DNA of 64,000 nt from Acidocella sp. Its GTDB lineage: Bacteria > Pseudomonadota > Alphaproteobacteria > Acetobacterales > Acetobacteraceae. This document shows, one piece after another, positions 25,750-58,445 of the stretch; position 1 is the stretch's first letter; the number at the start of each line of letters is the position of its first letter. A model generated the notes under the pieces. The model searched no databases and was not told where the DNA came from. It worked only from the letters and a program-made list of their open reading frames with translations. The translations under genes and the position numbers were made by a program. The stretch lies in the NCBI RefSeq assembly GCF_035535915.1, contig NZ_DATLPB010000012.1, positions 988 to 64,987 on the forward strand, given 5' to 3'.

Positions 25750-25818
25750 TCTTCGTCACATCCTTTGCTAATTTGGCCGTGCGTGGCCGGTGAAGAAAAA
25801 GCTCGCTGTGAACGCCGT

Positions 25819-26064
25819 TCACTGAGGCCGATCATCTGGCGATTGTTCCATTTCTGCCGCTGTGCGCAGGATCGAGCCTGGCGCGGACAGCGCGGCATAA
25901 AGCGTTCGTCCATCCGGGGTTTTCCACCAGCCATCGAGGCGCAGCGTTTGATGGGTGCGCGGGTCGCGGATAAGGGAACAGGGCGCGGCGGGGTGAAAGA
26001 TCAGTTCGCCGGCGATGGTTGGGGGAAAAGCTCGGATGGCCGGACGGGGCAGCACATGGTTCAT
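25819..26064 (-). CDS. Phage hypothetical protein
   Basis: 81 aa from ATG at 26064; ATGA coupling to the upstream gene. Confidence 0.5.
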   Translation of the reverse strand: MNHVLPRPAIRAFPPTIAGELIFHPAAPCSLIRDPRTHQTLRLDGWWKTPDGRTLYAALSAPGSILRTAAEMEQSPDDRPQ

Positions 26065-26216
26065 AGCCGCACCAGTATGATGGCGAGGATGATGACCGGC
26101 GCCCAGGTAACGAGCGCAATGGAAAGGATGACGAGCAGTCCCCATTTCGAGTGCTCGATGCGCTCTTCGGTCTCCCGCGCGACCGCTCGCTCCAGGCACA
26201 GCGACATCTCGTTCAT
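26061..26216 (-). CDS. Small membrane protein (51 aa, not in the ORF track)
   Basis: Manual translation MNEMSLCLERAVARETEERIEHSKWGLLVILSIALVTWAPVIILAIILVRL; 4-bp overlaps. Confidence 0.6.
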   Translation of the reverse strand: MNEMSLCLERAVARETEERIEHSKWGLLVILSIALVTWAPVIILAIILVRL

Positions 26217-26398
26217 TGGCCACCTGTCAGGAGCCAGAGAACGAGCAATGCAGCGGCGATATACTTGGCAGAAAAGGCAATGATCGCACCCCCGGCGACG
26301 GAGGCCGCGGCTTGATGCTTATGGCGCCGGATGGTCTGCCAGGGTGTCTCAGCTGTATGGGCTGACGGGAGAAAACTGGAACGCATGAACGCCTCCAT
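26213..26398 (-). CDS. Small membrane protein, first gene after PL
   Basis: 61 aa with C-terminal hydrophobic stretch. Confidence 0.55.
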   Translation of the reverse strand: MEAFMRSSFLPSAHTAETPWQTIRRHKHQAAASVAGGAIIAFSAKYIAAALLVLWLLTGGQ

Positions 26399-26416
26399 CG
26401 TGCGGAACGATGGTGA

Positions 26417-26480
26417 GCGTTAATCCATTATGGATTAGTTTGCAATCCATAATGGCGAAAAACTGAATCCAAAATGGATT
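26417..26480 (-). promoter_or_regulatory. PL/OL: three 15-bp operators and leftward promoter
   Basis: AATCCATTATGGATT (26422), AATCCATAATGGCGA (26444), AATCCAAAATGGATT (26466), 22-bp period; minus-strand TTGCAA-N17-TAACGC. Confidence 0.8.
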
Positions 26481-26636
26481 CCATCTAGGCAAAAAAACGC
26501 CTTGTCGATGCCTAAAGTTGGGTTACATCTAGGTAACACTCTCTGACATTGCGGAGGTCTAGGGCTAATGAAATGAGGATTCGGCACTATAGGAATGGGG
26601 AGCAAAACCCCGGATCGCTACACTACAAGCCGTGCG

Positions 26637-26993
26637 TTAAAGCCGATTGTTGTCCGTGTTCACAGCCGTGTATTGCAGCTCTTCGCTCAATTCCGGGTGC
26701 TGAACCAATAGGGCCGCCGCCAAAGCCCGGTGGCATCCCGAAACGTCGGCTCTGAAAATATAATCCATCGTCACATGAAACCGGCGGCAGAAAGCCACAA
26801 GAATATAGGGGTCGGGCGACCTGTCGCCGGCTTCCCATTTTTGCCACGCCGCCTGATTTAGGCCGAACAACTTCGCCGTCTCAGTTTGGCCTAGATTGGC
26901 GTATTCGCGCACCCAGCGGATGCGGTTTCCGACGCCTTCCATATATGCGCGAGGGGTCTTTCGGGCGGTTTTCGGCATGGGGTTCTGTAACAT
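26637..26993 (-). CDS. CI-like XRE HTH repressor (short, no peptidase domain; alternative start 26978)
   Basis: VGNRIRWVREYANLGQTETAKLFGLNQAAWQKWEAGDRSPD; divergent from cro; flanked by operators. Confidence 0.85.
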   Translation of the reverse strand: MLQNPMPKTARKTPRAYMEGVGNRIRWVREYANLGQTETAKLFGLNQAAWQKWEAGDRSPDPYILVAFCRRFHVTMDYIFRADVSGCHRALAAALLVQHPELSEELQYTAVNTDNNRL

Positions 26994-27013
26994 TACGGCC
27001 TCTGCAACGTCGA

Positions 27014-27055
27014 ACTCCAAAATGGATTGCGAAATAATCCAATCTGGATTATTTG
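27014..27055 (+). promoter_or_regulatory. PR/OR: two 15-bp operators and rightward promoter
   Basis: ACTCCAAAATGGATT (27014), AATCCAATCTGGATT (27036); TTGCGA-N17-TATTTG ending 7 nt before the cro ATG. Confidence 0.75.
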
Positions 27056-27062
27056 GCGTGTC

Positions 27063-27314
27063 ATGGGCCATGCTGAAATCATCAAACGACTCGGTACAGA
27101 AAACGTGAGAAAATGGACGGGCGCCACGGCCGCCAACATCTCGCACTGGCGCGCGCGGGGTATTCCTTCGCGGTTTTGGGCCATAATTGTCGAAAAATCG
27201 GCGATGCTCGGCGTCGATCTGGCGGTATCCGCGTCCGATCTTCAGGACGGTTACGCTGGTAAGCGCAAACTTCCCGGAGCCGAGTCGGATGCGATTCGCC
27301 GACGCGCAGCATGA
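27063..27314 (+). CDS. Cro-like HTH regulator
   Basis: IIKRLG...ANISHWRARGIPSRFWAII; divergent from cI. Confidence 0.75.
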   Translation: MGHAEIIKRLGTENVRKWTGATAANISHWRARGIPSRFWAIIVEKSAMLGVDLAVSASDLQDGYAGKRKLPGAESDAIRRRAA

Positions 27315-27420
27315 GCAACCTTTCGATGGAATCAACCGTTCGCATGGAGATGCTTGTCCTCCTTTGCGCCGCAACAGTCACCCGGATTTAGTCCGGAGGT
27401 CAAACGATTTGGAGGATTAT

Positions 27421-27882
27421 ATGACGGAGCGACAGTTCGCACCTGCCGACTACAATGCCATGAAAACGGCGATGAAGCTGGTGATCGCCGATCTCGGCGG
27501 GATCGATGCGGCGGCGAGCTGCACGCGTGTCGGGCGTAGTCAAATCGCTGATTACGGTGTGTCCGGAAAAGACACATTCGCTCCGGCTGACGTGGTCATG
27601 GACCTCGAGCGAGTGGGCGGCACGCCGCATGTCACTGCGGCACTGGCGCGCGCTCAAGGCTATATGCTTGTCCCGATAGACATGCCGCGTGAGCGCGGGG
27701 TGCTGGCATCGCTGATGGCCGAGATCGGCCGGGATGTCGGCGAGTTGTTCGCCACAGCCGCCACAGCGCTGGCCCATGACAAGCTGACCGATCAGGAACG
27801 GCAGGATCTGCTGCGTGAGCTGGACACTTTGCGCCGCGTCAGCAGCGAGGCGTTCGCATTTCTGATGTGTGTTCCGGCGTAG
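27421..27882 (+). CDS. CII-like phage regulatory protein
   Basis: GGAGG RBS; GGIDAAA...VGRSQIADY...VVMDLERVGG; position after cro. Confidence 0.7.
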   Translation: MTERQFAPADYNAMKTAMKLVIADLGGIDAAASCTRVGRSQIADYGVSGKDTFAPADVVMDLERVGGTPHVTAALARAQGYMLVPIDMPRERGVLASLMAEIGRDVGELFATAATALAHDKLTDQERQDLLRELDTLRRVSSEAFAFLMCVPA

Positions 27883-27908
27883 CGTTAATGGACTGCAGCA
27901 CTGAGATC

Positions 27909-28403
27909 ATGACGAACACTGGCACCAGGCGCCGCGGCGCCATGACTGAGGATCGCCTGAGTCTCATGGTGTTGTTGCGTGCCCGTAAAACGCCGCCGGT
28001 GTGGCTTGAGATTTTGCGCCGGCTGAATGCTCTGCCGGGCGAGAGACTGAACAGTGTAAAGCATTTGATGAACACTTATGGGCGTCTGAAACGAACCGGT
28101 CAGATCGCCCACTACCATTCGCAAGCGCTCGCGTCTGCGAATACCGCGCCTGCGGCTGCCGGATCATCTCCGGCGGCGGGTGCGCTGACTAAGGACGTTT
28201 CCTCCCTGAACTCGCCTCCGGTTCCTAAAGAGCCGGAGGCACTTTTTCTGGATGGTATGATCCTTGTCAGCTATGAACATGCCCGCAAATGGGCGTGGCG
28301 GCAGGGACTTTGCCGAAAAGGCCATGGCCTCAACCTTATCGCTGTGAATGCGGCGCGGGTGAAGATGGGGCTAATAAAATTCTCCATCATTGGTGCGCTA
28401 TGA
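27909..28403 (+). CDS. Hypothetical protein (N-terminus weakly GcrA/Myb-like)
   Basis: MTEDRLSLMVLLR...; ATGA overlap with gcrA; start uncertain (27888-27942). Confidence 0.55.
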   Translation: MTNTGTRRRGAMTEDRLSLMVLLRARKTPPVWLEILRRLNALPGERLNSVKHLMNTYGRLKRTGQIAHYHSQALASANTAPAAAGSSPAAGALTKDVSSLNSPPVPKEPEALFLDGMILVSYEHARKWAWRQGLCRKGHGLNLIAVNAARVKMGLIKFSIIGAL

Positions 28404-28864
28404 ACGATGACAGTTGGCCAGATCATCTGGTGCTGAAGCTGCGCGCGTTGTGGGCAGAGGGACTTTCTTCGTCCGAAATCGGAAGCCGGCTCAATAAGTC
28501 GAAGAATTCAGTGGTGGGTAAGGCGCACCGCCTCCATTTGCCGTCCCGACCCAGTCCGATCCGGCGTTCTGGTGAAGCGCGAGCAGTAAAGCCTGTAAAA
28601 CTGGTCACACCGGGTCAATCTGCGAAGAATTGTGCCGCTGCGGTGCCGCCGTCCCTGATTGTGCCGGCCGTGCCCGTCGTTGCGCTTGCGCCGGGCCTAG
28701 TGCTGAGCGGACGCGCGGTGTCGTGCCAGTTTCCAATCGGCACACCGCGACAGCCCGATTTTCGGTTCTGCGAAGCCCCGAGCGAAGCCGGCAAGCCTTA
28801 CTGCCAAGACCATTGCGCCATCGCCTATGTGCGAGCACCTGAGTCAGAAAGGGACGCGGCATAA
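28400..28864 (+). CDS. gcrA: GcrA family cell-cycle regulator homolog
   Basis: W....LRALWAEGLSSSEIG...SKNSVVGKAHRL and CQFPIGTP...FRFC...KPYCQDHCAIAY. Confidence 0.9.
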   Translation: MNDDSWPDHLVLKLRALWAEGLSSSEIGSRLNKSKNSVVGKAHRLHLPSRPSPIRRSGEARAVKPVKLVTPGQSAKNCAAAVPPSLIVPAVPVVALAPGLVLSGRAVSCQFPIGTPRQPDFRFCEAPSEAGKPYCQDHCAIAYVRAPESERDAA

Positions 28865-29136
28865 TGAACGATAAACTCCAAGAGGATGTCGCTAAACTCT
28901 CTGCCGCCGCGCAGAGGATTGTCGCGGGTGTCAGGGCTGCTTCGCCTGGGGTTGCGGATATTTACCTCTACCAGGCTTTAGCCGTCGCCGCCGGAATCAT
29001 CCTGGCTGACGCGCTGTATCCGGAAATGCCGACGGTCGCGGGGTCAAATGCTGCGGTGTTTCTCGTGGCTGGCGTGCAGTTCGGCAGGGAACGCCGCACC
29101 GAAGCAGAAAAAGCAAGTTGCCACGGTGTTGCATGA
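28864..29136 (+). CDS. Phage hypothetical protein
   Basis: 90 aa; overlaps neighbours. Confidence 0.6.
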   Translation: MNDKLQEDVAKLSAAAQRIVAGVRAASPGVADIYLYQALAVAAGIILADALYPEMPTVAGSNAAVFLVAGVQFGRERRTEAEKASCHGVA

Positions 29137-30644
29137 GCGACGTGTTCAATGTGATGCGCATTCCGCCGAGCAACGTCCCGGCGGAGCAGGCGCTGCTGGG
29201 GGCGCTGCTGGCGAATAATAAGGCGTTCGAGAGCGTTGCTGAATTTCTGCTGCCGCATCATTTTGCCGACCCGGCCAACGCCCGGGTCTACGGCGCAATC
29301 GCCAGCAGGATCGCGGCTGGGCAGGTTGCTGATCCGGTCACGCTCAAGGCGGAGTTTGAGCATGCGGCCGAACTGGATGCTGTTGGCGGTCTATCCTATT
29401 TGGGTAAGCTGCTCGCTTCCATGATTGGGATCATCAACGCTGGGGATTATGGCCGTGCGGTGCATGACGCCTGGTTGCGGCGCGAACTGATCGCGGCCTG
29501 CACCGAGGCTATCAATCAGGCTTACGTGCCGACCGGGGTTAGTGGTCAGGAGGTACTTGAGGAACTGGATGGCGCGCTGACACGCGTCGCGGACGGCGCG
29601 GGCGAGGTCAAGCCGCTTTCGACAGCCGGTGATGCTGTGTCGCGGGCAGTAGTACTCTCGACCGAAGCGGGCGAGCGCGACAGTGCGCTGGCCGGTCTCA
29701 CCACGGGGTATGCGGCGCTCGATCGCCTGACGGCCGGACTGATGCCGGGGCAGATGTATCTGCTCGGCGCGCGCCCGGCGATGGGTAAGACCGGGCTTGG
29801 GCTCGGGATCGCTGCGCGCGCCGCCAGTCATGGCGCCAAGGTCCTGATGTGGTCTGGTGAGATGGATGCGCCGCAGCTCGGCACGCGTCTTGCTGCCGCG
29901 CATTCGGGCATAGAGGTTGCTTCGGTGTTTCGTGGCAAGGGCTGGGAAATGCCGCCTGATCATGGTGGCAGACCTGTCTCGCGGAAACTGACGATGGATG
30001 AGGGGAATCGTCTCGTGCGCGCCGGGCGCGATGCGTATCGCCTACCGCTCAATTTCGACGATCGACCTGGTTTGACGGTCGCGGGCTTACGTGCCCGCGC
30101 GCGGCGCATGAAGCGCGGCAAGGGGCTCGATCTGATCGTGGTCGACTATATCGCCTTGATGCGCGCGACCGCCGCGGCGGAAAAGCAGAAGCTTTATGAG
30201 CGGATGACTGAATTGAGCCGGGATCTACGCATCTTGGCGGCGGAACTTCATGTTCCGATCCTGGTTCTTGCGCAGTTGAACCGCGCCAATGAAAGTCGCG
30301 AGAATAAAATGCCGCAGCTCTCCGATCTGCGTGATACCGGCGCGCTGGAACAGGACGCTTATTGCGTGATGTTTCTGCATCGCCCGCATTATTACCTGAT
30401 GCAGGCTGGCGAACCCGTCCGGGCCCAGAAAGAAAGCGCCGAGGCGTTCCAGGAACGCTCGGATCTCTGGCACCATCAGGTCGAGTCAACGCGCGGCCTG
30501 GCGCTCGTCTCGATCGCGAAAAACCGTAATGGGCCGACCGGAATCTGCCGTCTGCGCTTCGACGCGGAGACGATCTGGTTTCGGGATGAGTCTGAGGCTG
30601 ACAATGAAGCTGCCTGGGGCAGCGCTTTTCTGGGGGATGCGTAA
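29133..30644 (+). CDS. DnaB-like replicative helicase
   Basis: AEQALLGALL, GARPAMGKT (Walker A), IVVDY, LAQLNR and SDLRDTGALEQDA motifs. Confidence 0.95.
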   Translation: MSDVFNVMRIPPSNVPAEQALLGALLANNKAFESVAEFLLPHHFADPANARVYGAIASRIAAGQVADPVTLKAEFEHAAELDAVGGLSYLGKLLASMIGIINAGDYGRAVHDAWLRRELIAACTEAINQAYVPTGVSGQEVLEELDGALTRVADGAGEVKPLSTAGDAVSRAVVLSTEAGERDSALAGLTTGYAALDRLTAGLMPGQMYLLGARPAMGKTGLGLGIAARAASHGAKVLMWSGEMDAPQLGTRLAAAHSGIEVASVFRGKGWEMPPDHGGRPVSRKLTMDEGNRLVRAGRDAYRLPLNFDDRPGLTVAGLRARARRMKRGKGLDLIVVDYIALMRATAAAEKQKLYERMTELSRDLRILAAELHVPILVLAQLNRANESRENKMPQLSDLRDTGALEQDAYCVMFLHRPHYYLMQAGEPVRAQKESAEAFQERSDLWHHQVESTRGLALVSIAKNRNGPTGICRLRFDAETIWFRDESEADNEAAWGSAFLGDA

Positions 30645-31495: not shown

Positions 31496-31935
31496 GCGCT
31501 GCACTGAACGTCGTTCACGAAGTTTTCGCAGATGACTGGACTGAGCGGCTGATCATCGAGCGGCTCGAGGATGCTGGCCGGACATTGATTGCGATGAAGG
31601 ACACAGGGTATCGTCCCGGTCTCGCGCAGCGGCAGCATGACGTGGTTCATGACATTTGGGATGCGTATAATTGGACCATTCCTCCAGAGCTGAGGTTGCC
31701 GCGGCCGGGAATTGAAGAGATCAAGCGAATGGACGAAGCCTATGGATGGATGAAATTCATTCCGTCCGGTCAGGTGACGATGCGGCGTATCGTGCAGGCG
31801 AGATCGCTTCGGCATCCGCTATCGGATCGTTATCTGTTTTCATGGCGGCGCTTGGCAGATGTTTTGCGTCTGGACCATAAGGCGGTGCAGCGTGTTCATG
31901 CCAACGGCATCAGGAACATTTTAAAAGGGCTTTAA
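31492..31935 (+). CDS. DUF6362-like protein at the Q-like position (putative late regulator)
   Basis: W....IERLEDAGRTL...EIKRMDEAYGW...SWRRLA pattern; last early gene before the late region. Confidence 0.65.
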   Translation: MSAALNVVHEVFADDWTERLIIERLEDAGRTLIAMKDTGYRPGLAQRQHDVVHDIWDAYNWTIPPELRLPRPGIEEIKRMDEAYGWMKFIPSGQVTMRRIVQARSLRHPLSDRYLFSWRRLADVLRLDHKAVQRVHANGIRNILKGL

Positions 31936-32034
31936 AAATAATTTCAAAGAGGCTTCCGAATCGCCCCAAAATATCCGATAGAAATTTCTAGTGGTTCGGA
32001 GATGCGCCACTCGATGTTGTGAAGCTTGTTGTTC

Positions 32035-32067
32035 AACCCGCCACCGAAAGGTCCGGCGGGTTTTTTA
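32035..32067 (+). terminator. Intrinsic terminator upstream of the late operon
   Basis: ACCCGCC-loop-GGCGGGT followed by a T-run. Confidence 0.75.
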
Positions 32068-32078
32068 TTGGGAAAACC

Positions 32079-33521: not shown

Positions 33522-35637
33522 CGCCGGCTACTACCCGGCGGCCCAGCTGGTCGCCGAGGCGCTCAAGGCATTGCTGCCGCCCGAGCCGGCGAACGTTGCC
33601 GACTACGCGGCCGCCCGTCGCTATCTCAGCAATGAGGGTGGTGGTTATGTTGGGCGCTGGAACCATGACCAGGCGCCCTATCTGATCAAGCCGATGGAAG
33701 AGCTTTCCAACCAGGAGTTCCTGACGGAAGTCATCGTCGGTCCTGGCCAGTGTGGGAAATCGGAGATCGGCCGTAACTGGCTGTTCACCACGGCGCTGTG
33801 CGACCCGGCGGACATGCTGTGGTATTCGGGGAGCGAGCCGCAGGTCTCCACCGAGTCGAAAATCAACATCACCCGGATGATCAACGATCATCCCGAGCTG
33901 CATGCCCTGCTGCGGGATAACAGCCTGTTCTTCAAGCGCTTCGGCTCGATGTCCGTGCAGTTCCTGGCCGGCATCATGAGCAACTTCACCATGAAGTCGG
34001 CGCCGCGGATCCTGGCAGATGAATGGGATCTGATCTGCAAGGGCGTGCCCAACGCGAAACCGCTGCTTGACGTCCGGCGCCAAACCTTCGGCGCGCAGTC
34101 CAAACTGGTCGCGCTGTCCCACCCGGATCTCGCCAACGGCTTGGAGACGAAGGATTGGAATGCCGGTATCATGGAGCTGTACCGCGACAGCGACCAGCGC
34201 AAATGGTTCTGGCAGTGCCCAAGCTGCGGCGCCTATAGCTCGCCGAATCCGACCGCGTCGCGCGTCATGACCATCGACTATGATGCCGCCGCACCGGATG
34301 ACGAGATCCGCGACATGGCGCGGCTGTGCTGCCCGGTGAATGGCTGCATCATCGAGGACAGCCAGCGCTACGCGATGAACCTCACCGGCAAATGGGTCGG
34401 CAAGGGCCAGGACATCGATGAGGATGGCACCGTCACCGGGGCACTCGTGCAGCGCGACACCGCCGGCTTCTGGATCGTCGGCGCGATGTCCCCGTTCATC
34501 CTTGGGGGGATCGGCGGGCTCGCGGTGGCGCGCGCCCGGGCAGAACGGAAGTTTGCACGCGACAATGATCGCAAGGCGCTGGCCGAGGTGCTCTCCAAGC
34601 AATGGGGCATTCCACTCGCGCGCTCGCGGAGCAGCGAGACGATCGATGCGACAGTCATCGCCGAGCGGGCCGAGCCGGATCTGACCTTGGGCATCGTCGC
34701 GAACGGCGTTCGCTTCATCACGGTGATGATCGACGTCCAGATCAACCGCTTCGAGCTGCTCGCGCGCGGCTGGTGCGAGGGCGGCGGCAGTGTCGTCATC
34801 GACTTCCAAACGATCCCGGCCACGCCCGGCACCAGCGCCGCCGATTGGGATCGGGTGCTGACGATCGCCACCGAGACGGCCTGGCCGCTCGAGGATGACA
34901 TGAGGCGTGGCATGAAGGCGGTCGCCGTGGGATTTGACTCCGCCGGCGCCGCCGGTGTGACGCTGCAATCCTATGAGGCGTGGAAACGGCTGAAGGCGCG
35001 GCGGGGTGCGCGGCTGCATGGCCGGATCGACGGCCGCCCCGCCTGGTCGGTACTGCCGATGAAGGGTGCGTCCACCCTACAGGCGCCGCGGCTGCAGGTG
35101 GTGTATCCGAATGCCCAGCGCACCGATCGCTTTGCCCAGGCGCGAGGCGAGGTCCCGCTCGGAATCTTCAACCCGAACAGCTTCAAGGATGACCTGGCCG
35201 CGCAGCTGATCCTCGGCGACGGCGCAAACTGGTCGGTCCGATTCCCCAAGGCGCTGGCGGCGGACGCGCCGCCCCATCCCTGGTTCGAGCAGCTGGTGGC
35301 CGAGGAGCGGGACGCGAACGGCAGGTGGAAACCACGCCAGGACGGCACGCGCAACGAAGCGACCGACCTGATGGTGGGCACGCATGTGCTGGCCTTCATG
35401 ATGGGAATCAACCGCATCAAATGGGAGGCTCCGCCTGTCTGGGCGCGCGACTGGAAGAGCAACTCGCACGTGATCGCTGTGGCCGCGGCCGCCAGCGGCG
35501 AGCAACGCGCGGCGGCGGCGGCGACCACGGCAGCGTCGCCGCCGCGAGAGGCGACGCCGGCGACGGCTTCGGCGGTTAAGAGCCGCTTTAAGATGCCACC
35601 GCTGAAAATCATCAACTCCGTGCCGCTGAAGCGCTGA
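33496..35637 (+). CDS. Terminase large subunit (lambda gpA family)
   Basis: GPGQCGKSE Walker A, ADEWD, CPSCG zinc motif, MIDVQ nuclease motif, RNEATDL. Confidence 0.93.
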   Translation: MSQPAFSVSAGYYPAAQLVAEALKALLPPEPANVADYAAARRYLSNEGGGYVGRWNHDQAPYLIKPMEELSNQEFLTEVIVGPGQCGKSEIGRNWLFTTALCDPADMLWYSGSEPQVSTESKINITRMINDHPELHALLRDNSLFFKRFGSMSVQFLAGIMSNFTMKSAPRILADEWDLICKGVPNAKPLLDVRRQTFGAQSKLVALSHPDLANGLETKDWNAGIMELYRDSDQRKWFWQCPSCGAYSSPNPTASRVMTIDYDAAAPDDEIRDMARLCCPVNGCIIEDSQRYAMNLTGKWVGKGQDIDEDGTVTGALVQRDTAGFWIVGAMSPFILGGIGGLAVARARAERKFARDNDRKALAEVLSKQWGIPLARSRSSETIDATVIAERAEPDLTLGIVANGVRFITVMIDVQINRFELLARGWCEGGGSVVIDFQTIPATPGTSAADWDRVLTIATETAWPLEDDMRRGMKAVAVGFDSAGAAGVTLQSYEAWKRLKARRGARLHGRIDGRPAWSVLPMKGASTLQAPRLQVVYPNAQRTDRFAQARGEVPLGIFNPNSFKDDLAAQLILGDGANWSVRFPKALAADAPPHPWFEQLVAEERDANGRWKPRQDGTRNEATDLMVGTHVLAFMMGINRIKWEAPPVWARDWKSNSHVIAVAAAASGEQRAAAAATTAASPPREATPATASAVKSRFKMPPLKIINSVPLKR

Positions 35638-39317: not shown

Positions 39318-39971
39318 ATGGTTTCCCCCGTGATTTACGAGCAATATTATGACGGCGCCTTTATGGTCTCCGAGGCCAACGGGCACCGCTCCCGTGACCT
39401 CGGCGACCTGAATAACTCCACCGCTTCCGACATTCTGTATGAAGGTGGTCTGGTCGTGGCCCAGCAGGGCGCCGGCATCGTGTCAGCCGCACATGGCACG
39501 AACACCGGCAACGGTACGATCGGCAGCCTCTCGGTGCTGCAGGGCGCCGAGTTCGGCACCTACACGCTGACCGCTACCAGCGCGACGGAATTCAACGTCG
39601 TGGCGCCGAGCGGTGATCTGATCGGCGAGGCGACGGTCGGCACGGCGTTCGCCGACCAGGTTGGCTTCACCCTTACCGCCGGCAGTACCGCTTTCGTGGC
39701 CGGCGATTCCTTCACACTGGACGTCACCCAGCAGATGGACATCTGGGAGAGCTGGACTGGTGGCGCGATCACCGGGGCGATGGGCATTCTCTACAACCGG
39801 GTCTGGGTCGAGGCCGGCACCTCCAAAAAGGTGACGATCGTCACCCGCGCCTGCGAGGTGAACCTGTCCGAACTGCAGTGGGATCCGGCGGTGACGAGTT
39901 CGGCCAGCGTCGCGACGCTGCAGGCTCAGGCGCTCGCCGCCCTCGCCACCATGGGCGTCATCGCCCGCTAA
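39318..39971 (+). CDS. Head decoration protein
   Basis: FMVSEANGHRSRD; GNTGNGT...FVAGDSF internal module; upstream of MCP. Confidence 0.8.
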   Translation: MVSPVIYEQYYDGAFMVSEANGHRSRDLGDLNNSTASDILYEGGLVVAQQGAGIVSAAHGTNTGNGTIGSLSVLQGAEFGTYTLTATSATEFNVVAPSGDLIGEATVGTAFADQVGFTLTAGSTAFVAGDSFTLDVTQQMDIWESWTGGAITGAMGILYNRVWVEAGTSKKVTIVTRACEVNLSELQWDPAVTSSASVATLQAQALAALATMGVIAR

Positions 39972-41035: not shown

Positions 41036-41062
41036 GCGAACGCCGTTCACTGGAACTGTATA

Positions 41063-48673: not shown

Positions 48674-49157
48674 CCGTTTTGCGAACGCCGTTCGCATGAT
48701 GCTCACCCGTGCGAAGGTCGCCGGTGCCGTGATCTCAGGCCGGACCTTGATGCAGGTGACGCGCTACGACACCGAAGTTTTCAATTCGGTCGAGCTGCTG
48801 CTACCGCCTGGCTATGTTGCCAACCCGTCGATCGACTCGGACGTACTGGTGATCCAGGTCGGTTCGCTCGCCGACCACAAGGTAGCTTTGGGCGGAGATA
48901 ATACCGCGGACGCGGTCGCCGATCTGCAGCCGGGCGAGGGTGGCATGTCCCGCCAGCAAGGGCAGCGCCAGCTGATCCAACGCCTGGGCTGGACAGAGAT
49001 CATCGATCCCGCCGAGGTGCGCATCATCGCGCCGGCGATGCTGTGGAGCCCTGACGGCGGCAAGACCTTCCTCCGTCTGGCCACGGAACAGCACACGCAC
49101 GGCGGCGTCCAGACCGGCGATTTCCAGACCGAAACACCAAGCGAGGGACTCACATGA
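48663..49157 (+). CDS. Baseplate spike (Mu gp45-like)
   Basis: LQPGEGG; C-terminal HTHGGV metal-binding tip. Confidence 0.82.
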   Translation: MDFNRFANAVRMMLTRAKVAGAVISGRTLMQVTRYDTEVFNSVELLLPPGYVANPSIDSDVLVIQVGSLADHKVALGGDNTADAVADLQPGEGGMSRQQGQRQLIQRLGWTEIIDPAEVRIIAPAMLWSPDGGKTFLRLATEQHTHGGVQTGDFQTETPSEGLT

Positions 49158-51350: not shown

Positions 51351-51352
51351 CC

Positions 51353-52513: not shown

Positions 52514-52527
52514 GGAGCAACGCAAAA

Positions 52528-53085: not shown

Positions 53086-53115
53086 TTCGAGGCGAAGACA
53101 TACAGCGCGGGTGAG

Positions 53116-54273
53116 CTAATCGGCCGCGCTTGAGATCTGAAGCGCCGAAACATTAGGAGCCGTCTGCTTCATCGCGAAGAATCGAACAGCCCTTTGGCGA
53201 CAGGGTTTCTCGATAAACTCCCAAAGAAGGTATGAGACCAATAGCGTTAAGGCCCAGAACGCCACATACTGAGCCTTTTTCCCGCCGAACGCCGCGAGGC
53301 TGTCATTTTCGGCGAAGACGCGAAGAAAAATCTGATGGCACATGTAGATGGAGAAGCTGATCTCCCCAAGTCGCACGGGAAGCTGCAAAGACAGGAACCG
53401 CGATGGAAGACCGCGCCCGCTCGCCATGAGGATGATCAGAACAACCATGGCTGGAGCATATCCGCATTCGTCGAACCACCAGAACGCGGCGTAGCCGATG
53501 TGCTTGTGCGCGAAAAGGACGGACAAGAATGGGGTCATCCCATACAGCACGAGACCGACGATTACGAATGCTGCCAGCTCGAGCATGGTAGCGCTCCAAA
53601 CTGGCAGACGAGCAAGTTTCGCGCTATGCTGCAACCAGATCGAGCAGCCGGCAATCCCGAGCGCAAATTCCAGCAAGCGAACGGGCGGGAAGATAAAAGC
53701 CGTGGGATCGACGGGCATTCCTTCCAACATCCACTTGCCAGGCGTGAATCTCGCATACTCGAGTATCGCTATGATGGCTGCCACGCAAAGCGCAAGCTTC
53801 CACATCCACGTTTTGCTCCAGCGGCATATCAGGACCGGAAACAGCAGATAGAAGAATGCCTCGACAGACAGGCTCCACGATACGGCGTTAAACGAGAAGA
53901 AATAGTTGAACTGCGGTGACCACGCTTGCAACAGGAGGAGATTGGTTATGGCCTCGCGAGCGGCGTTTCCTGGCGGTCCCCATGGTGCAGGAAGAAACGC
54001 AAGGACAATGAGAAACGTGGCGAAATGGAGCGGCCAAATTCGAGCTAACCGTGCGACATAGAAATTGTACACATCGCGGGGCGTCTCGAATTCCCGATAC
54101 GAATAGTAGAGAATGAAGCCCGATAGGACATAAAAAAAATCCACGCCGGCATCGAGGCTAAAACGTGTTCCGAGCCAGTTTCCGTAGCCAAAATAGGCCC
54201 GGCTATGGTGAATGACGATCATTACGGCTGCGAGGAAGCGCAGCGAGGTTAGTGGCCTTAGGCTCCTTTTCAT
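53116..54273 (-). CDS. Acyltransferase-3 family membrane protein (moron; alternative start 54285)
   Basis: LTSLRFLAAVMIVIHH, VDFFYVLSGFIL, RLARIWP, WSLSVEAFFYLLFP, LGEISFSIYMCH, IEKP; antisense to the late operon. Confidence 0.92.
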   Translation of the reverse strand: MKRSLRPLTSLRFLAAVMIVIHHSRAYFGYGNWLGTRFSLDAGVDFFYVLSGFILYYSYREFETPRDVYNFYVARLARIWPLHFATFLIVLAFLPAPWGPPGNAAREAITNLLLLQAWSPQFNYFFSFNAVSWSLSVEAFFYLLFPVLICRWSKTWMWKLALCVAAIIAILEYARFTPGKWMLEGMPVDPTAFIFPPVRLLEFALGIAGCSIWLQHSAKLARLPVWSATMLELAAFVIVGLVLYGMTPFLSVLFAHKHIGYAAFWWFDECGYAPAMVVLIILMASGRGLPSRFLSLQLPVRLGEISFSIYMCHQIFLRVFAENDSLAAFGGKKAQYVAFWALTLLVSYLLWEFIEKPCRQRAVRFFAMKQTAPNVSALQISSAAD

Positions 54274-54408
54274 TGCCAATGCCATACAGACCGCTTGCTC
54301 CTTGGGCAACCCCAGGCCTCTCAGGCGCCTGAATCGTGCTCCTGAGCCCTTAGGCACAACCATCCGTGCGCGGCGGTCCCGCGTATTATTTTTTTGAAAG
54401 AAATCGAC

Positions 54409-55023
54409 ATGTTTTTCCTGATGCTCACCCTGGGCATGCTGGCGCTTGCTCTTACGTTCACGCCGGCTACCCGGCGGCTGGTCTCCACCGTCGCCATTTT
54501 CCGCCCCGGCCGGGTCGGGCTCGCAAGCTTGGCGTTCGGGGCCGTGCTGGGTGCCATCCTGTTCAGTCCGCGCCTGGCGCTGGCCGCCACCGGCGCGCCG
54601 GCGCAGGTCGTGGACCTCACACAGCTCTGGGGCTGGGTGCTCTCCGTTGCCATCGCGGTCATCACCTTCTATGGGCGCCGTGCCTTGGTCGCGATCGAGA
54701 GTCGCCTGAGCATTCAGAGCGGCAGCGCGGCGGCGGACGACCTCGACCAGGCGCTGGTGCATGGCGAGGCATTTCTCATGAACGGCCTGAAGGCGCTCGC
54801 CGCCAGCACGTCGACCGTGACCATTGCGGCCGGACCGCTGGCGAACGCCGTGAGCCTCGTCCAGAAGCTCGCTCCGGCCGCCGAGGACGCGCTCGGCGTC
54901 ACGCCGGCCGACATCGAGGCCATGCTGCTCGCGCGCATCGGTGTGCCTGCGGCCACCATCCCGGCTGCTCAGCCAACCCCGCCCGCCGCGTCCCCGGCAA
55001 CGCCCGCACCGGCCGCCGCTTAA
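54409..55023 (+). CDS. Multi-TM membrane protein, holin-like candidate
   Basis: Two to three hydrophobic segments then a soluble helical tail; first gene of the lysis-type region. Confidence 0.55.
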   Translation: MFFLMLTLGMLALALTFTPATRRLVSTVAIFRPGRVGLASLAFGAVLGAILFSPRLALAATGAPAQVVDLTQLWGWVLSVAIAVITFYGRRALVAIESRLSIQSGSAAADDLDQALVHGEAFLMNGLKALAASTSTVTIAAGPLANAVSLVQKLAPAAEDALGVTPADIEAMLLARIGVPAATIPAAQPTPPAASPATPAPAAA

Positions 55024-55106
55024 GCCCGGCCACTCATCGAGGCGGCCCGGCATGCGCCTGGCCGCCATCCCGGTTGCTCCATCCCCCTCATCCAAAGGAA
55101 TCCATC

Positions 55107-55604
55107 ATGAACATGACCCGCCGGGCCTTGCTGGGCTCGACTGCCGCCGCCTGCATGCTCACTGGCTGCACCGCTTCCGAGATCGCGACAATTTCCGCCG
55201 AGGCTGCGGCCGAACTGAGCGACGTTGCAACGGCGCTGGTTGCGCTAACACCGGTACTGCCGACGCTCACTGGAATTCCGGCCGCCACGCTGACCACGAT
55301 CGAGAGCGACATCGGGCAGGCCAGCACATTCGCGCAGAGCATCAATAGTGCCGCCACGGCGATAGCCGGCGAGTCTGCCGCGGGCAAGGTCGTTACCTTG
55401 GCTGGCGATGGTCTGAAGCTGCTTGCTGGCTTCGCCTTACCGGCGAAAGTGTCGCAGGTGGTAACGGCGCTGCAGCTGGTCCTGCCGGTACTTGGCGCGG
55501 CAGCCGGCCTGTCGAGCGCCACTGTCAGCGCACCGGCGCCGGAAGCGCTCGCTGCGGCACGCGCCACGCTGCGCAACGCCCGCACACTGCTGGCGGCCGG
55601 CTGA
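55107..55604 (+). CDS. Putative Tat-exported lipoprotein
   Basis: MNMTRRALLGSTAAACMLTGC: twin-Arg motif plus lipobox; AAGGA RBS. Confidence 0.7.
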   Translation: MNMTRRALLGSTAAACMLTGCTASEIATISAEAAAELSDVATALVALTPVLPTLTGIPAATLTTIESDIGQASTFAQSINSAATAIAGESAAGKVVTLAGDGLKLLAGFALPAKVSQVVTALQLVLPVLGAAAGLSSATVSAPAPEALAAARATLRNARTLLAAG

Positions 55605-56392
55605 TGCGCTGGCCGCTCGGGAAGCTGCCGCGCCCGGCGGGCGTGGATGTTCCTGCGCTGCTGCATGTCCGTGGCGTCGCGCCGCTACCGCCGCCGCCTG
55701 CCTCGGCTGATTGGTCGAAGCCGGTGCACGCGTGGCTGATGCTGGGCAATGACGTCTATGGCGACTGCGCCTGGGCGGCGATGCTGCACGCGGTCCAACT
55801 CTGGACGGCCAATGCGGGCGCCGAGGTCATGCCAGACACCGCCTGCGCGCTGGCCGATTACTCGGCCGAGACCGACTTCACGGCCGGGCCGCCGGTGGCG
55901 AACGACAATGGCACCGTGCTGCTCGATGCGCTGCGGTATTGGATGCTGACAGGCATCGCGATCGACACCGACGGTGCGCTCGATCGGTTGGACGGCTTTG
56001 CCGATATCGAGCCCGGCGACATCGACGGCATCAAGCGGTCGATCGAAGAGTTCGGCTGTGTGCTGCTCGGCGTCGAACTGCCAGAGAGCGCGGAGACGCA
56101 ATTCGATGCCGGCGAGCCGTGGTTCGTCCTCGATATGCCAGACGCGCCGGCTGGCGGCCACGCGGTGCTGGCCGTGGCCTATGATGCCAACGGCATGTGG
56201 GTCGTGACATGGGGCGAGCGGCAATACGTCGAATGGCCATGGTGGAAACGCTACGGCTCGGAAGCTTATGCCCTGCTGCGGCGCGAATGGATTGGCCCGA
56301 ACGGCACCGCCCCCAGCGGCCTGACGTTGGGCCGCCTCGATGAGATGATCCAGCGCATGCATGGCGTCCTCAGCCCTGGCGCCTACGCGTGA
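55604..56392 (+). CDS. Papain-like (C1-related) cysteine peptidase
   Basis: MLGND.YGDCAWAA (Cys), GGHAVLAVAY (His), VVTWG (NSWG-like). Confidence 0.7.
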   Translation: MRWPLGKLPRPAGVDVPALLHVRGVAPLPPPPASADWSKPVHAWLMLGNDVYGDCAWAAMLHAVQLWTANAGAEVMPDTACALADYSAETDFTAGPPVANDNGTVLLDALRYWMLTGIAIDTDGALDRLDGFADIEPGDIDGIKRSIEEFGCVLLGVELPESAETQFDAGEPWFVLDMPDAPAGGHAVLAVAYDANGMWVVTWGERQYVEWPWWKRYGSEAYALLRREWIGPNGTAPSGLTLGRLDEMIQRMHGVLSPGAYA

Positions 56393-56484
56393 TCGAGCTC
56401 TGGCTCCGCTGGTGGGGCTGGCATCCCGTTAGTGTCATGCAGCCAGACTGGTCTTGGCGCCGCGAATGGCAGTGGCGCGGATAA
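56389..56484 (+). CDS. 31-aa Trp-rich peptide (not in the ORF track)
   Basis: GTGA overlap with the upstream stop; MIELWLRWWGWHPVSVMQPDWSWRREWQWRG. Confidence 0.45.
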   Translation: MIELWLRWWGWHPVSVMQPDWSWRREWQWRG

Positions 56485-56557
56485 CAGCTGCCCCTTCAAG
56501 TCATGCGCAGCCTCGGCGGCCTAACTTTCCCCTCACTTATCAAATCAGGAATACGAG

Positions 56558-56824
56558 ATGACCAAAGGGCTCCCCCATGTCGACGTGCCGCCCGAGATGA
56601 TTCCCCGCGACTTGGCCGAAGCGCTCGTTGCGATCGGTCGTCTGCAGGTGATCTGCAAGAATCAGGAGACAAAGCTCACCGAACACGACGCCGAAGTGAG
56701 CAAGCTTAACTCGGTCATCCAGACCGCGAACGGCGTGAAAATCGCGCTGTTCTGGGTGGCAGCCGCCATCCTCGGTGCCACCACGATCTGGTTCAATGTC
56801 GTCAATGGAAAGCCTTGGAAATGA
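56558..56824 (+). CDS. Coiled-coil protein with C-terminal TM
   Basis: 88 aa; hydrophobic IALFWVAAAILGATTIWF. Confidence 0.6.
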   Translation: MTKGLPHVDVPPEMIPRDLAEALVAIGRLQVICKNQETKLTEHDAEVSKLNSVIQTANGVKIALFWVAAAILGATTIWFNVVNGKPWK

Positions 56825-57285
56825 CGGCGGCGCATGAGCAGCGCGAGACGCTGCATGAGGACGTACTCTACCCTGAGCACGTCCAGCGCACGGAATCCGA
56901 GGAGTTCCGGCGCAACAAGCGGGTGCTGATTCGCAAGCTGGACCTCCCGTGCTGGGTATCGGGCTCACGCGAAAAACGCGAGGTCCACCACATTTTCGAG
57001 TGGAGCCTTTGGCCCTCGCTCGATCCCGAAAGGGTGCTCGATGCGCTGCATGCCTTTGATCCCTATGGCTTCACTGCGCGCGATCCCGAGACGCCAATCA
57101 CGAGCCCGGACGACATCAGGAACCTTCTGGTCCTGTCAGAAAAATTTCATCGTGGCATCGGCACCGGCGTGCATAAAATCTCGTTTCCGATCTGGCTGCC
57201 GCAGCGTGCGGTGAAGCCGGGTGTCGAGATCACCTGTGACCCGGGAGGTCACACAGCCAAGGCCGCGCCCAAGAAGGCCGCCTGA
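56821..57285 (+). CDS. HNH-like protein
   Basis: CWVSG...EVHH...NLLVLSEKFHRG..GVH. Confidence 0.55.
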   Translation: MTAAHEQRETLHEDVLYPEHVQRTESEEFRRNKRVLIRKLDLPCWVSGSREKREVHHIFEWSLWPSLDPERVLDALHAFDPYGFTARDPETPITSPDDIRNLLVLSEKFHRGIGTGVHKISFPIWLPQRAVKPGVEITCDPGGHTAKAAPKKAA

Positions 57286-57287
57286 TC

Positions 57288-57767
57288 GTGTGCGATCCGG
57301 AAAACATCGCCCTGTTTCTGCCTGACATCACGACAGCGGAATTTCCACCTGACGAAACGGTGGCCGTGTTTGCACCTGATGTCACCGTTGCCCTTTTCCT
57401 CCAGCAATCGGATGCGTCGATGAGCATATTCAATGAGACTCCTGAGATGGTGCTTCTTACCGGCAAAGCACCCTTCACCTCGCGTCAGTACGAACATGAT
57501 TTCTCAAACCAGCTGAAGGCCGGGGATACGATCGCCGCCATCGATTCGGTGATCTCGACGCCGATCGGCGCGCTGCAGCCAGGCCAGGTCAATCTGACGA
57601 TCGGCACCCAGGCGGTGATCGCAGGCAAGAAAGGTGCCGCTCTTGCCGTGGGAACGGTGATTTCCGGCGGCTCCATCGGCGCCAAATACCAGGTCACGGC
57701 CGACATCGTCTCGGCCAACGGCGACCAGGTCAGCCTATCCTTCATCCTGCCCGTGGAGAATCGTTAG
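57288..57767 (+). CDS. Putative fibre-tail adaptor-like beta-sandwich protein
   Basis: YEHDFSNQL..GDTI...ISGGSIGAKYQVT...NGD..SLSFILPV pattern. Confidence 0.5.
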   Translation: MCDPENIALFLPDITTAEFPPDETVAVFAPDVTVALFLQQSDASMSIFNETPEMVLLTGKAPFTSRQYEHDFSNQLKAGDTIAAIDSVISTPIGALQPGQVNLTIGTQAVIAGKKGAALAVGTVISGGSIGAKYQVTADIVSANGDQVSLSFILPVENR

Positions 57768-58295
57768 ATGCTCAGCAATTTCGATGCCTGTTGCGGCTTT
57801 TCGCTGCGTCAGGAGGGTGGTTTTTGTGACGTCAAGGGTGATCCTGGGGGAGCCACGAATCACGGCATCACCATGGCTGAGCTGTCGGCTGTCCTCGGAC
57901 GGCCCGCGACCGTGGACGATGTGCGCAACCTGACCGCGGCTCAGTCCGAGGCTATTTACAAGCCGCGTTATTGGGTCGCGGTGAGTGGTGATGCGCTGCC
58001 GGCCGGCGTGGACCTTGTCGCATTCGATTTCGGGCTCAACGCGGGGCCACGCACCAGTGCGATGCAGCTGCAGGCGCTTATAAAAGTGGAACAGGACGGC
58101 GTCATCGGCCCCGCTACGCTGGCTGCGCTCGCGACGCACGACAGGTCCTGGGTCATCGCGGCGCTGACGCTCAGCCACCAGGCTTACTACCGGCGGCTTC
58201 CGGGCTATGGCGAATTTGGCCCGGGATGGATCGCGCGAACGGTACGATGCCAGGCAGCGGCCGGGGCGATGGTTCCGCATGGAGTGGCGGCATAG
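57768..58295 (+). CDS. Endolysin, glycoside hydrolase family 108 with PG-binding domain
   Basis: EGGF..DPGGATNHGIT, FDFGLNAG, QDGVIGPATLAA and FGPGW motifs. Confidence 0.92.
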   Translation: MLSNFDACCGFSLRQEGGFCDVKGDPGGATNHGITMAELSAVLGRPATVDDVRNLTAAQSEAIYKPRYWVAVSGDALPAGVDLVAFDFGLNAGPRTSAMQLQALIKVEQDGVIGPATLAALATHDRSWVIAALTLSHQAYYRRLPGYGEFGPGWIARTVRCQAAAGAMVPHGVAA

Positions 58296-58445
58296 GATCA
58301 GGCCGCGAGTCGAGCGGCGCGACATTGAAGAATGGGCAGCGGCGAATCGGTGACGTCCCCGGGATGGGACGGGGGTATGCTGGCTCACGAAAGGGTGATG
58401 AACGGCGTTCACAAACGCCGTTCATCGGAACATCCCGAGAACAGA

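What the first reader, a model, noticed from the sequence alone, without database searches (positions are those of the whole stretch)
25808..58425. 15-bp palindrome (GAAC-N3-GTTC core) dispersed along the prophage
Seen: GTGAACGCCGTTCAC (25808), CTGAACGTCGTTCAC (31504), GCGAACGGCGTTCGC (34699, in terL), GCGAACGCCGTTCAC (41036, right after the MCP stop), GCGAACGCCGTTCGC (48681), ATGAACGGCGTTCAC (58398) and a partial copy at 58411. Five share the exact 11-mer GAACGCCGTTC or its complement; a rough estimate at 60-65% GC gives well under 0.1 expected copies in 43 kb. I saw none in the host flanks by eye. Known: phage N15 uses dispersed inverted-repeat centromere sites, and mycobacteriophage L5 uses dispersed repressor 'stoperators'. 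Inference: binding sites for the ParB-like protein (23056-24474; no ParA seen) or another phage regulator acting as roadblocks or DNA organisers.
Basis: partly seen in the sequence, partly recalled or inferred. Interest (0 to 1): 0.72.

Follow-up and report, generated by a model that had tools for sequence, protein, structure and literature searches.

The report
Phage ParB clamp's scattered docking sites
A 43-kb prophage carries six to seven evenly spread copies of one 15-base palindrome, which comparison with other phages ties to the phage's own partner-less ParB DNA-clamp protein, so a large uncharacterised class of phage ParB proteins now has a testable binding site.

Summary
GAACGNCGTTC occurs six times in the window, all inside a prophage bounded by a 42-bp repeat (15602-58607). 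Only three more copies exist in the other 3.6 Mb of the genome (P about 3e-12).

The consensus across relatives is G-C/T-GAACG-S-CGTTC-G/A-C.

The motif follows one protein across phages. Every phage record that encodes this subfamily of ParB/Noc-type CTPase carries 3-10 copies, including records that share no other gene with this prophage. One copy usually lies within 300 bp of the parB gene, often 11-28 bp from its start. Phages that share the terminase, capsid and tail genes but have only a distant ParB, or none, have almost no copies. Pooled counts are 52 sites in 301 kb against 1 in 551 kb.

Sites are more evenly spaced than chance (about every 2.5-6.5 kb). More than half lie inside genes, and variants are never compensated as a hairpin would require.

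Best reading: these are parS-like loading sites from which an orphan ParB clamp (no ParA) spreads over the whole phage genome. What the coating does is not known.

This is a new variant of a known kind (ParB-parS, Noc-NBS, KorB-OB), and I found no paper describing it.

The parts
25808..25822 (.). Site 1, GTGAACGCCGTTCAC. It lies in a roughly 490-bp stretch of low coding potential in the early-left operon, 1.3 kb upstream of parB.
   Evidence: The parB-proximal position is conserved in relatives.
31504..31518 (.). Site 2, CTGAACGTCGTTCAC, in codons 5-9 of the DUF6362 gene at its junction with the upstream gene.
   Evidence: Syntenic copies are at L065:7858 and L075:3121.
34699..34713 (.). Site 3, GCGAACGGCGTTCGC, inside terL (codons Ala-Asn-Gly-Val-Arg, about residue 405).
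   Evidence: The same codons are kept in 8 relatives, using the rare GTT Val codon or GTG in half-variants. The site is replaced by one upstream of terL in relatives whose residues differ.
39638..39652 (.). Possible weak site, half-variant CGGCACGGCGTTCGC, inside the head-decoration-like gene.
   Evidence: The same sequence occurs at the same place in L067 and L071, so it may be kept by the protein sequence alone.
41036..41050 (.). Site 4, GCGAACGCCGTTCAC, directly after the major capsid protein stop and before a separate terminator hairpin.
   Evidence: Syntenic copies after the capsid gene are at L025:2497, L064:17259, L065:17951 and L068:17278.
48681..48695 (.). Site 5, GCGAACGCCGTTCGC, between the baseplate hub gene stop (48673) and the ATG at 48696 of the next baseplate gene.
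58398..58425 (.). Site 6 (ATGAACGGCGTTCAC) plus an overlapping one-mismatch copy (ACAAACGCCGTTCAT), about 150 bp from attR. Together they form a 12-bp-arm inverted repeat.
23056..24474 (-). Orphan ParB/Noc-type CTPase gene (472 aa), the proposed reader of the sites. It has GERRYRA (box II), ENLQRQD (box III) and the ParB HTH domain. It also has an extra N-terminal three-helix domain, a middle alpha/beta domain, a long helix and a four-Cys tail.
22214..23059 (-). D12-class adenine DNA methyltransferase whose start overlaps the parB stop (GTGA). It is not conserved next to parB in relatives.
15602..15643 (+). attL, a 42-bp copy of the 5' part of tRNA-Thr, marking the left prophage boundary.
58566..58607 (+). 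attR, the first 42 nt of the intact tRNA-Thr gene, marking the right prophage boundary.

Best explanation
The 15-bp palindrome (consensus GCGAACG-S-CGTTCGC, core GAACGNCGTTC) is the cognate, parS-like DNA site of the prophage's own ParB protein. This ParB is a ParB/Noc-type CTPase with no ParA partner, and it is encoded in the early-left operon. By analogy with ParB, Noc, KorB and BisD, a ParB dimer recognises the palindrome through its HTH domain. It then binds CTP, closes into a clamp and slides away, so that each site loads many clamps. Because the sites lie every few kilobases and are more evenly spaced than chance, the clamps would cover essentially the whole phage genome once the early-left operon is expressed, which from its position is probably after induction or infection. 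Shown here: the motif's enrichment, its restriction to phages with this ParB subfamily, its position next to parB, its even spacing, and the intact CTP-binding and HTH motifs. Inferred: direct binding, CTP-dependent sliding and the timing of expression. The purpose of the coating is open. I think the likeliest roles are organising or marking phage DNA, or long-range control of phage transcription (KorB-, BisD- or VirB-like).
For: (1) Enrichment. Six of the genome's nine copies lie in 43 kb, P=2.8e-12, and this genome has the highest count among 301 family genomes. (2) Replication in other genomes. In the Acidocella MAG G302 all 3 copies of the strict 13-mer lie in the related prophage. In G001, 3 of 5 copies lie in the phage contig. 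(3) Double dissociation. IMG/VR records with this ParB subfamily carry 10, 9, 7, 3, 3, 6 and 4 copies, while the reversed-pattern control gives 0. G320 shares only ParB with the window, and G319 shares only ParB plus weak matches (23-28% identity) to integrase, terL and portal. Fifteen records that share terL (seven of the fifteen also encode a distant ParB) carry 2 copies in about 700 kb; the three fetched whole (G303, G305, G315) also share capsid, protease and tail genes. Pooled counts are 52 sites in 301 kb against 1 in 551 kb. (4) Position next to parB. A perfect copy lies 11-28 bp before the parB start in L073, L074, L069 and L077, and within about 300 bp of it or inside the gene in L064, L072, L076, L078 and L068. 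(5) The protein. It has GERRYRA and ENLQRQD motifs, scores above the TIGR00180 cut-off, matches Spo0J/Noc at E about 1e-20, and superposes on Noc/ParB at TM 0.75-0.82. (6) Spacing. CV is 0.25-0.49 in 5 of 6 records, combined P=1.8e-4. A site in terL and a site just upstream of terL substitute for each other in 7 of the 11 relatives compared (4 carry both or neither), which suggests selection for coverage rather than exact position. (7) Variation. A more distant ParB (39% identity, changed recognition helix) in an Azospirillum prophage goes with a changed site, GCGAAC-YCG-GTTCGC, present 3 times.
Against: The Acidocella MAG contig G001:C448 keeps several sites but encodes no ParB. It looks like a prophage that has lost its early-left arm, but a ParB-independent role cannot be excluded from that case. 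L066 and L070 have no copies. L066 is a defective element and L070 is a 12.5-kb fragment, and whether either has this ParB could not be checked. L071, which does encode this ParB, has only two perfect copies, one of them 11 bp upstream of its parB start. The canonical C-terminal ParB dimerisation domain was not detected, so clamp formation is assumed, not shown. The terL copy is partly explained by the conserved GVRF residues. Co-occurrence cannot exclude a small, fast-evolving protein that always travels with parB.
Confidence: 0.75

Rival explanations
1. ParB binds the sites, but its job is to steer a DNA-modifying enzyme onto phage DNA. Here that enzyme would be the D12 adenine methyltransferase whose start overlaps the parB stop. 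This idea was proposed for 'ParB-Tls' loci, and a DNA-binding-domain-less phage ParB was recently shown to activate thymine dioxygenases.
For: The parB stop overlaps the methyltransferase start. Phage ParB-methyltransferase fusions and ParB-dependent 5mYOX enzymes are documented (PMC6536676, PMC13229309, PMC12704722).
Against: In relatives, the genes after parB are different: small ORFs, DUF5131, DUF4326, AlpA and ASCH. No homologue of this methyltransferase was found in G318-G324. The characterised activator ParBs lack a DNA-binding domain, unlike this one.
Confidence: 0.08
2. The palindromes are operators of another phage regulator (the CII-like, CI/Cro-type, GcrA-like or DUF6362 protein), not of ParB.
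For: These genes are conserved in the terL clade that carries the motif. The CII-like gene also co-occurs in G318, G323, G324 and L078-L081.
Against: G319 and G320 have 9 and 7 sites but no detectable CII-like, GcrA-like, DUF6362 or terS homologue of the window. L066 has DUF6362, the phrog_1924 protein and terS but no site. No copy lies in the CI/CII divergent region (about 27000-27400).
Confidence: 0.06
3. The motif acts as an RNA or single-stranded DNA hairpin, for example a processing, stability, termination or priming signal.
For: It can form a 6-bp stem with a 3-nt loop. Sites are enriched near gene boundaries: 19 of 42 are intergenic or within 45 bp of a gene end, against 8.9 expected.
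Against: The sequence is conserved, not merely the pairing. There are 7 half-variants (GCACG in one arm) and no compensated double variant. More than half of the sites lie deep inside genes on either strand. No T-run follows, and the capsid-gene site has a separate real terminator downstream. The motif follows a DNA-binding protein across unrelated phages.
Confidence: 0.03
4. The motif is a restriction-modification or other defence-related target, or an effect of composition or coding.
For: Interrupted palindromes are typical type II targets. The prophage encodes two D12 methyltransferases. The terL copy overlaps the conserved GVRF residues.
Against: Phages normally avoid such targets rather than accumulate them. 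Host frequency is at chance level, 3 copies against roughly 4 expected (my own estimate from base composition; counts). The reversed-pattern control gives 0 in all records. Most copies lie in unrelated genes or in intergenic DNA.
Confidence: 0.03

Closest known systems
Chromosomal ParB-parS and its paralogue Noc-NBS (CTP-dependent clamps that load at 16-bp palindromes)
   Same: The closest proteins by sequence and fold are Spo0J and Noc (E about 1e-20, TM 0.75-0.82). The CTP-binding boxes and the HTH domain are intact. The site is palindromic, with one copy beside the gene. As with Noc, there is no ParA and many sites are scattered over the whole replicon.
   Different: The site is 15 bp with a central base pair and an unrelated sequence. 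The replicon is an integrating temperate phage. The ParA-binding peptide is absent. The N-terminal, middle and C-terminal domains differ, and no canonical C-terminal dimerisation domain was detected. Noc's membrane-targeting helix was not examined.
KorB and its OB operators on IncP-1 plasmid RK2 (PMC11790492)
   Same: It is a ParB-family CTP clamp with about a dozen copies of an odd-length palindrome (TTTAGCSGCTAAA, central S) spread over a 60-kb mobile element. In my recollection of the RK2 literature (not checked), some of those copies lie far from promoters. Its effects on transcription act at long range through sliding.
   Different: KorB is only a weak sequence match (E 2.6e-8). KorB also works with a ParA (IncC) and a clamp-locking partner, KorA. 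No ParA is present here, and no KorA-like partner was looked for.
BisD-bisS of the integrative conjugative element ICEclc (PMC12409273)
   Same: It is an orphan ParB-like CTPase on an integrated mobile element. It loads at odd-length palindromes that lie inside genes, spreads over tens of kilobases, and has an extra domain not found in ParB.
   Different: BisD has two bisS sites 2 kb apart rather than 6-10 evenly spread ones. Its site is a 23-bp palindrome of different sequence. It needs BisC and activates transfer promoters. Homology of the extra domains was not tested.
SopB and the four dispersed centromere repeats of phage-plasmid N15 (Ravin, Rech and Lane 2008, PMC2394991, as cited in PMC11652158)
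   Same: A temperate phage carries ParB-family binding sites scattered over its genome. By the title of that paper, the Sop system also facilitates late gene expression.
   Different: N15 is a linear plasmid prophage with a SopA ATPase and a true partition function. The phages here integrate through a tyrosine integrase and have no ParA.
Stoperators of mycobacteriophage L5 (from my own knowledge)
   Same: Many copies of a short site are dispersed through a temperate phage genome.
   Different: Stoperators are asymmetric, oriented with transcription, and bound by the immunity repressor. The sites here are palindromic and follow ParB, not the repressor.

Membership tests
ParB/Noc-type CTPase clamp with a cognate palindromic loading site | ParB N-terminal fold with the CTP-binding box II (GxxRxxA) and box III (ENLQR) | tested here: met
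   LVAGERRYRA and LENLQRQDV align with Spo0J and Noc. PF02195 scores 68.5 bits. TIGR00180 scores 95 bits against a cut-off of 58. The model superposes on Noc and ParB at TM 0.75-0.82.
ParB/Noc-type CTPase clamp with a cognate palindromic loading site | A central helix-turn-helix DNA-binding domain directly after the N-terminal domain | tested here: met
   PF17762 HTH_ParB covers residues 160-244. The recognition helix G(K/R)(T/S)xR(Y/F/W)VxxR is conserved in motif-bearing phages and differs in phages without the motif.
ParB/Noc-type CTPase clamp with a cognate palindromic loading site | A C-terminal dimerisation domain that closes the clamp | tested here: inconclusive
   There is no PF23552 hit. 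The model shows a different alpha/beta domain (256-366), a long helix (377-405) and a low-confidence four-Cys tail. The tail varies between orthologues.
ParB/Noc-type CTPase clamp with a cognate palindromic loading site | A palindromic site of about 13-16 bp specific to the replicon, with a copy near the parB gene | tested here: met
ParB/Noc-type CTPase clamp with a cognate palindromic loading site | Direct site-specific binding, with CTP-dependent clamp closure and spreading | not testable with these tools
   This needs EMSA or BLI, cross-linking and ChIP-seq.
ParABS partition system (including N15 Sop and P1 Par) | A ParA/SopA ATPase partner and a ParA-interaction peptide on ParB | tested here: not met
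   The host ParA finds nothing in the prophage (best E 0.18, in DnaB). No deviant Walker A gene is present. The phage ParB lacks LG(R/K)GL, which the host ParB has.
ParABS partition system (including N15 Sop and P1 Par) | The element is maintained as an extrachromosomal replicon | tested here: not met
   The element is integrated between 42-bp att repeats at tRNA-Thr and has a tyrosine integrase. Relatives are also integrated proviruses with integrases.
KorB-OB global regulatory network (IncP-1) | Many dispersed odd-length palindromic operators on one mobile element, some far from promoters | tested here: met
   There are 6-10 sites per phage, and 31 of 42 lie inside predicted genes.
KorB-OB global regulatory network (IncP-1) | KorB-type protein (specific similarity to KorB) with a KorA clamp-locking partner | tested here: not met
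   KorB is a far weaker match (E 2.6e-8) than Spo0J or Noc (E about 1e-20). A KorA-like partner was not searched for.
Stoperator-type repressor network (mycobacteriophage L5) | Asymmetric sites oriented with transcription and bound by the immunity repressor | tested here: not met
   The sites are palindromic with a central S. None lies at the CI/CII switch. The motif follows ParB, not the HTH repressor.

The most novel reading that the evidence does not exclude
A clade of orphan ParB CTPases in integrating temperate phages of Alphaproteobacteria uses 5-10 deliberately evenly spaced loading sites to coat the entire phage chromosome with sliding clamps. This would be a phage-encoded 'chromatin' or self-mark that sets phage DNA apart from host DNA during lytic growth. 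Possible uses are compaction or compartmentalisation before packaging, counter-silencing, or shielding from SMC-type or nuclease defences. Site specificity would co-evolve with the ParB recognition helix (GAACG-S-CGTTC here, GAAC-YCG-GTTC in an Azospirillum phage).
Probability: 0.3. Interest if true: 0.85.

Novelty: new variant of a known kind. Interest (0 to 1): 0.62.

Why it matters
A recent survey found orphan ParB proteins to be common on prophages, but it gave neither DNA sites nor functions for them (PMC12704722). This finding provides a concrete protein-site pair for one such family. It comes with a consensus, natural half-site variants, a related variant site in a diverged member, and a genome-wide layout that suggests whole-genome coating rather than a single centromere or operator. 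That makes the open question of what ParB clamps do in integrating phages testable with EMSA, ChIP-seq and deletion of parB or the sites in a lysogen. The pair could also serve as a new orthogonal ParB/parS pair for DNA labelling.

Tried and rejected
- **Annotated phage collection:** a distant search with the terL-to-capsid region gave only short matches at 67-76% identity, so there is no annotated close relative.
- **Apparent clusters in two other family genomes** (G218, G056): these were chance, with no phage genes shared.
- **ParB as a single query against viral contigs:** nothing was found. An alignment of four orthologues was needed.
- **Promoter and terminator scans:** counts were at shuffle level and none was associated with the sites, so there is no support for promoter-proximal operators.
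- **A dispersed palindrome for the distant-ParB phages** (G303, G305, G315): none was found. The only hit was a local array of five GGCACTGAA-N5-TTCAGTGCC repeats in G305, which is not dispersed and not near parB.
- **Low-GC ParB phages as a control:** 73 contigs (1.3 Mb, 37-49% GC) with a different ParB had zero copies, but by my own estimate from base composition only about one is expected there, so this is uninformative.
- **DUF6362 in the literature:** no paper mentions it.
- **LexA boxes (GAAC-N7-GAAC), CRP/FNR, RirA and Irr boxes, and EcfG promoters:** considered from memory and rejected on spacing or symmetry.
- **Terminase (cos/pac) sites:** rejected because the sites are dispersed and follow ParB into phages with unrelated terminases.


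Full report
**Observation.** GAACNNNGTTC occurs 6 times in the window against 0.81 expected from dinucleotide-preserving shuffles. GAACGSCGTTC occurs 5 times against 0.12 expected. All copies lie between a perfect 42-bp direct repeat, 15602-15643 and 58566-58607. That repeat is the 5' part of tRNA-Thr, so it marks the ends of a 43-kb prophage. In the whole 3.66-Mb assembly GAACGNCGTTC occurs nine times, six of them in the prophage. At the host rate, the chance of six or more in 43 kb is 2.8e-12. The three other copies lie on contigs with no phage genes. Among 301 genomes of the same family this genome has the highest count of the 13-mer; most have 0-2 and show no clustering.

**Gene context.** The prophage has the following genes:
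- a tyrosine integrase (20710-21843, minus strand);
- a D12 methyltransferase (22214-23059, minus strand);
- the ParB-like gene (23056-24474, minus strand);
- DUF2303;
- an XRE-type repressor and a CII-like gene;
- a GcrA-like gene, DnaB and DUF6362;
- Nu1-like and GpA-like terminase subunits;
- lambda-like head genes and a contractile tail.

Site 1 lies in a stretch of low coding potential upstream of the operon that holds parB. Site 2 is in the first codons of DUF6362. Site 3 is inside terL. Site 4 lies between the capsid gene stop and a separate terminator. Site 5 is between two baseplate genes. Site 6 is 150 bp from attR.

**Relatives with the same structural genes.** Close relatives (terL 61-78% identical) came from an Acidocella MAG and from other Acetobacteraceae or metagenome contigs. 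They carry the same palindrome at syntenic places:
- beside parB;
- about 55-65 bp upstream of terL;
- at terL residue 405;
- after the capsid gene;
- at the start of DUF6362.

In the MAG G302 the strict 13-mer occurs three times in 2.1 Mb, and all three are in the prophage. The terL copy is partly explained by the conserved residues GVRF. However, all eight relatives that read Ala-Asn-Gly-Val-Arg there use GCG AAC GGC GT(T/G) CG(C/T). Relatives with other residues at that point lack it, and three of the four (L064, L059, L067) carry a copy just upstream of terL instead; the fourth, L070, is a fragment with no copy at all. That pattern is site turnover with position roughly kept.

**What the motif follows.** All clade members I could reach encode a ParB_N plus HTH_ParB protein in the early-left operon. 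A perfect palindrome lies 11-28 bp before the parB start in L073, L074, L069 and L077. It lies within about 300 bp of the start, or inside the gene, in L064, L072, L076, L078 and L068.

Searching viral contigs with an alignment of four ParB orthologues gave seven records whose ParB is 34-57% identical. Whole-record counts of GAACGNCGTTC in them are 10, 9, 7, 3, 3, 6 and 4. The reversed pattern, used as a control, gives 0. Two of them share little else with the window prophage: G320 shares only ParB, and G319 shares ParB plus weak matches (23-28% identity) to integrase, terL and portal. G318 has unrelated structural genes that nevertheless contain sites.

The converse also holds. Fifteen records that share terL with the window carry two copies in about 700 kb, and the three fetched whole (G303, G305, G315) also share capsid, protease and tail genes. 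Seven of the fifteen encode a ParB, but of a more distant subfamily with a different recognition helix. Pooled counts are 52 sites in 301 kb against 1 in 551 kb. The CII-like, GcrA-like, DUF6362 and terminase genes do not follow the motif in this way.

A still more distant ParB (39% identity, helix CTQRHIQQRL instead of RTPRYVYQRL) sits in an Azospirillum prophage. That prophage lacks the motif but has GCGAAC-YCG-GTTCGC three times in about 14 kb. One exception remains: contig G001:C448 keeps several sites but has no ParB. Its left part carries large ORFs that match none of the prophage's proteins, so it appears to be a prophage that lost its early-left arm.

**Anatomy of the site.** From 59 distinct copies the consensus is G(71%) C/T GAACG S CGTTC G/A C, with nothing conserved beyond plus or minus 7. 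The central base is G or C in 57 of 59, and 28 of 59 copies are the perfect 15-mer. Seven half-variants carry GCACG in one arm, all in two phages, and none is a compensated double variant. This argues for a double-stranded site read by a dimer, not a hairpin.

Sites are enriched in intergenic DNA (11 of 42 against 4.9 expected, P=0.007), yet more than half lie well inside genes. Spacing is more regular than random. The coefficient of variation is 0.25-0.49 in five of six records, and the combined P is 1.8e-4. Promoter and terminator scans show no association.

**The protein.** It has box II (GERRYRA) and box III (ENLQRQD), scores above the TIGR00180 cut-off, and matches Spo0J and Noc best (E about 1e-20). 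KorB is a much weaker match at 2.6e-8. An AlphaFold2 model (mean pLDDT 83.6) superposes residues of about 60-245 on Noc and ParB at TM 0.75-0.82. The protein also has an extra N-terminal three-helix domain, a conserved alpha/beta middle domain, a long helix and a variable tail that here carries four cysteines. There is no ParA in the prophage and no ParA-binding peptide on the protein.

**Mechanism.** The best-supported reading is that the palindromes are parS-like loading sites for this orphan ParB. The pairing rests on comparative genomics. CTP-dependent loading and sliding are inferred from the intact motifs and from what is known of ParB, Noc, KorB and BisD (PMC11790492, PMC12409273, PMC12704722). 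The even spacing, the frequent copies inside genes and the site turnover suggest selection for coverage of the whole phage genome. What that coverage achieves is unknown. It could be DNA organisation or marking, long-range transcription control, or steering of a DNA-modifying enzyme. The last is the main rival, but the methyltransferase next to parB is not conserved in relatives.

**Comparison and novelty.** The system works like Noc-NBS or KorB-OB, with many sites and one clamp. It resembles BisD-bisS in being an orphan on an integrated element. It is not a partition system, because it has no ParA and is integrated. It is not a KorB family member by sequence, and it is not stoperator-like. 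My searches of the paper library found prophage orphan ParBs noted as common (PMC12704722), but no description of their sites or of dispersed sites on integrating phages.

Earlier notes of this scan report the same kind of arrangement in other genomes, including GCGAACCSGGTTCGC. I treat these as leads only. My Azospirillum result agrees with that one.

**Limits.** There are no experimental data. Gene calls in the relatives come from a simple GC3-based ORF picker.

Noticed in passing
window 15602-15643 and 58566-58607: The attachment repeat is the 5' 42 nt of tRNA-Thr, not the 3' end that integrases usually target. The intact tRNA at the right end is therefore cut off from its original upstream region by the 43-kb prophage, and a 5' fragment remains at the left end.
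   Followed up: no
window 17116-18799: Four copies of a 22-nt unit (CGCTCATGGTATGGACTGCCTT on the + strand) sit at the starts of successive small minus-strand genes. This is a repeated ribosome-site/stop/start junction.
   Followed up: no
L038:2456-2630 (= G305:C1:37256-37430): Five tandemly spaced copies of GGCACTGAA-N5-TTCAGTGCC lie within about 170 bp in a related provirus, like an iteron or operator array. The array is not dispersed and is 8 kb from that phage's parB.
   Followed up: partly
L175:5285, 9089, 14190 (Azospirillum sp. GCA_053470405.1 contig): A prophage with a 39%-identical ParB, fused to an N-terminal XRE HTH, carries GCGAAC-YCG-GTTCGC three times instead of GAACGNCGTTC. This is a possible case of site and recognition helix changing together.
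   Followed up: partly
window 23056-23200 (ParB C-terminus): The ParB tail has four cysteines (FCFDGC...VC...GC), and the pattern is shared with L073 but not with L072 or L074. It may be a zinc-binding module. The model has low confidence there.
   Followed up: no
window 28289-28864: The phage encodes a GcrA-like protein (PF07750, 96 bits) together with two D12 adenine methyltransferases (15721-16674, 22214-23059). This hints at methylation-dependent transcription control by the phage.
   Followed up: no
L066 (GCA_016276955.3 contig JAEHJW030011000.1): A related element has a truncated terL (613 aa) joined directly to tail genes, with all head genes missing. It contains no copy of the palindrome. 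It is a defective prophage or a tailocin-like remnant.
   Followed up: no
L065 and L068: In these two phages nearly all sites away from parB are half-variants with one GCACG arm, while the copies next to parB (L074:11254, 12436) are perfect. This could reflect graded site strength.
   Followed up: partly
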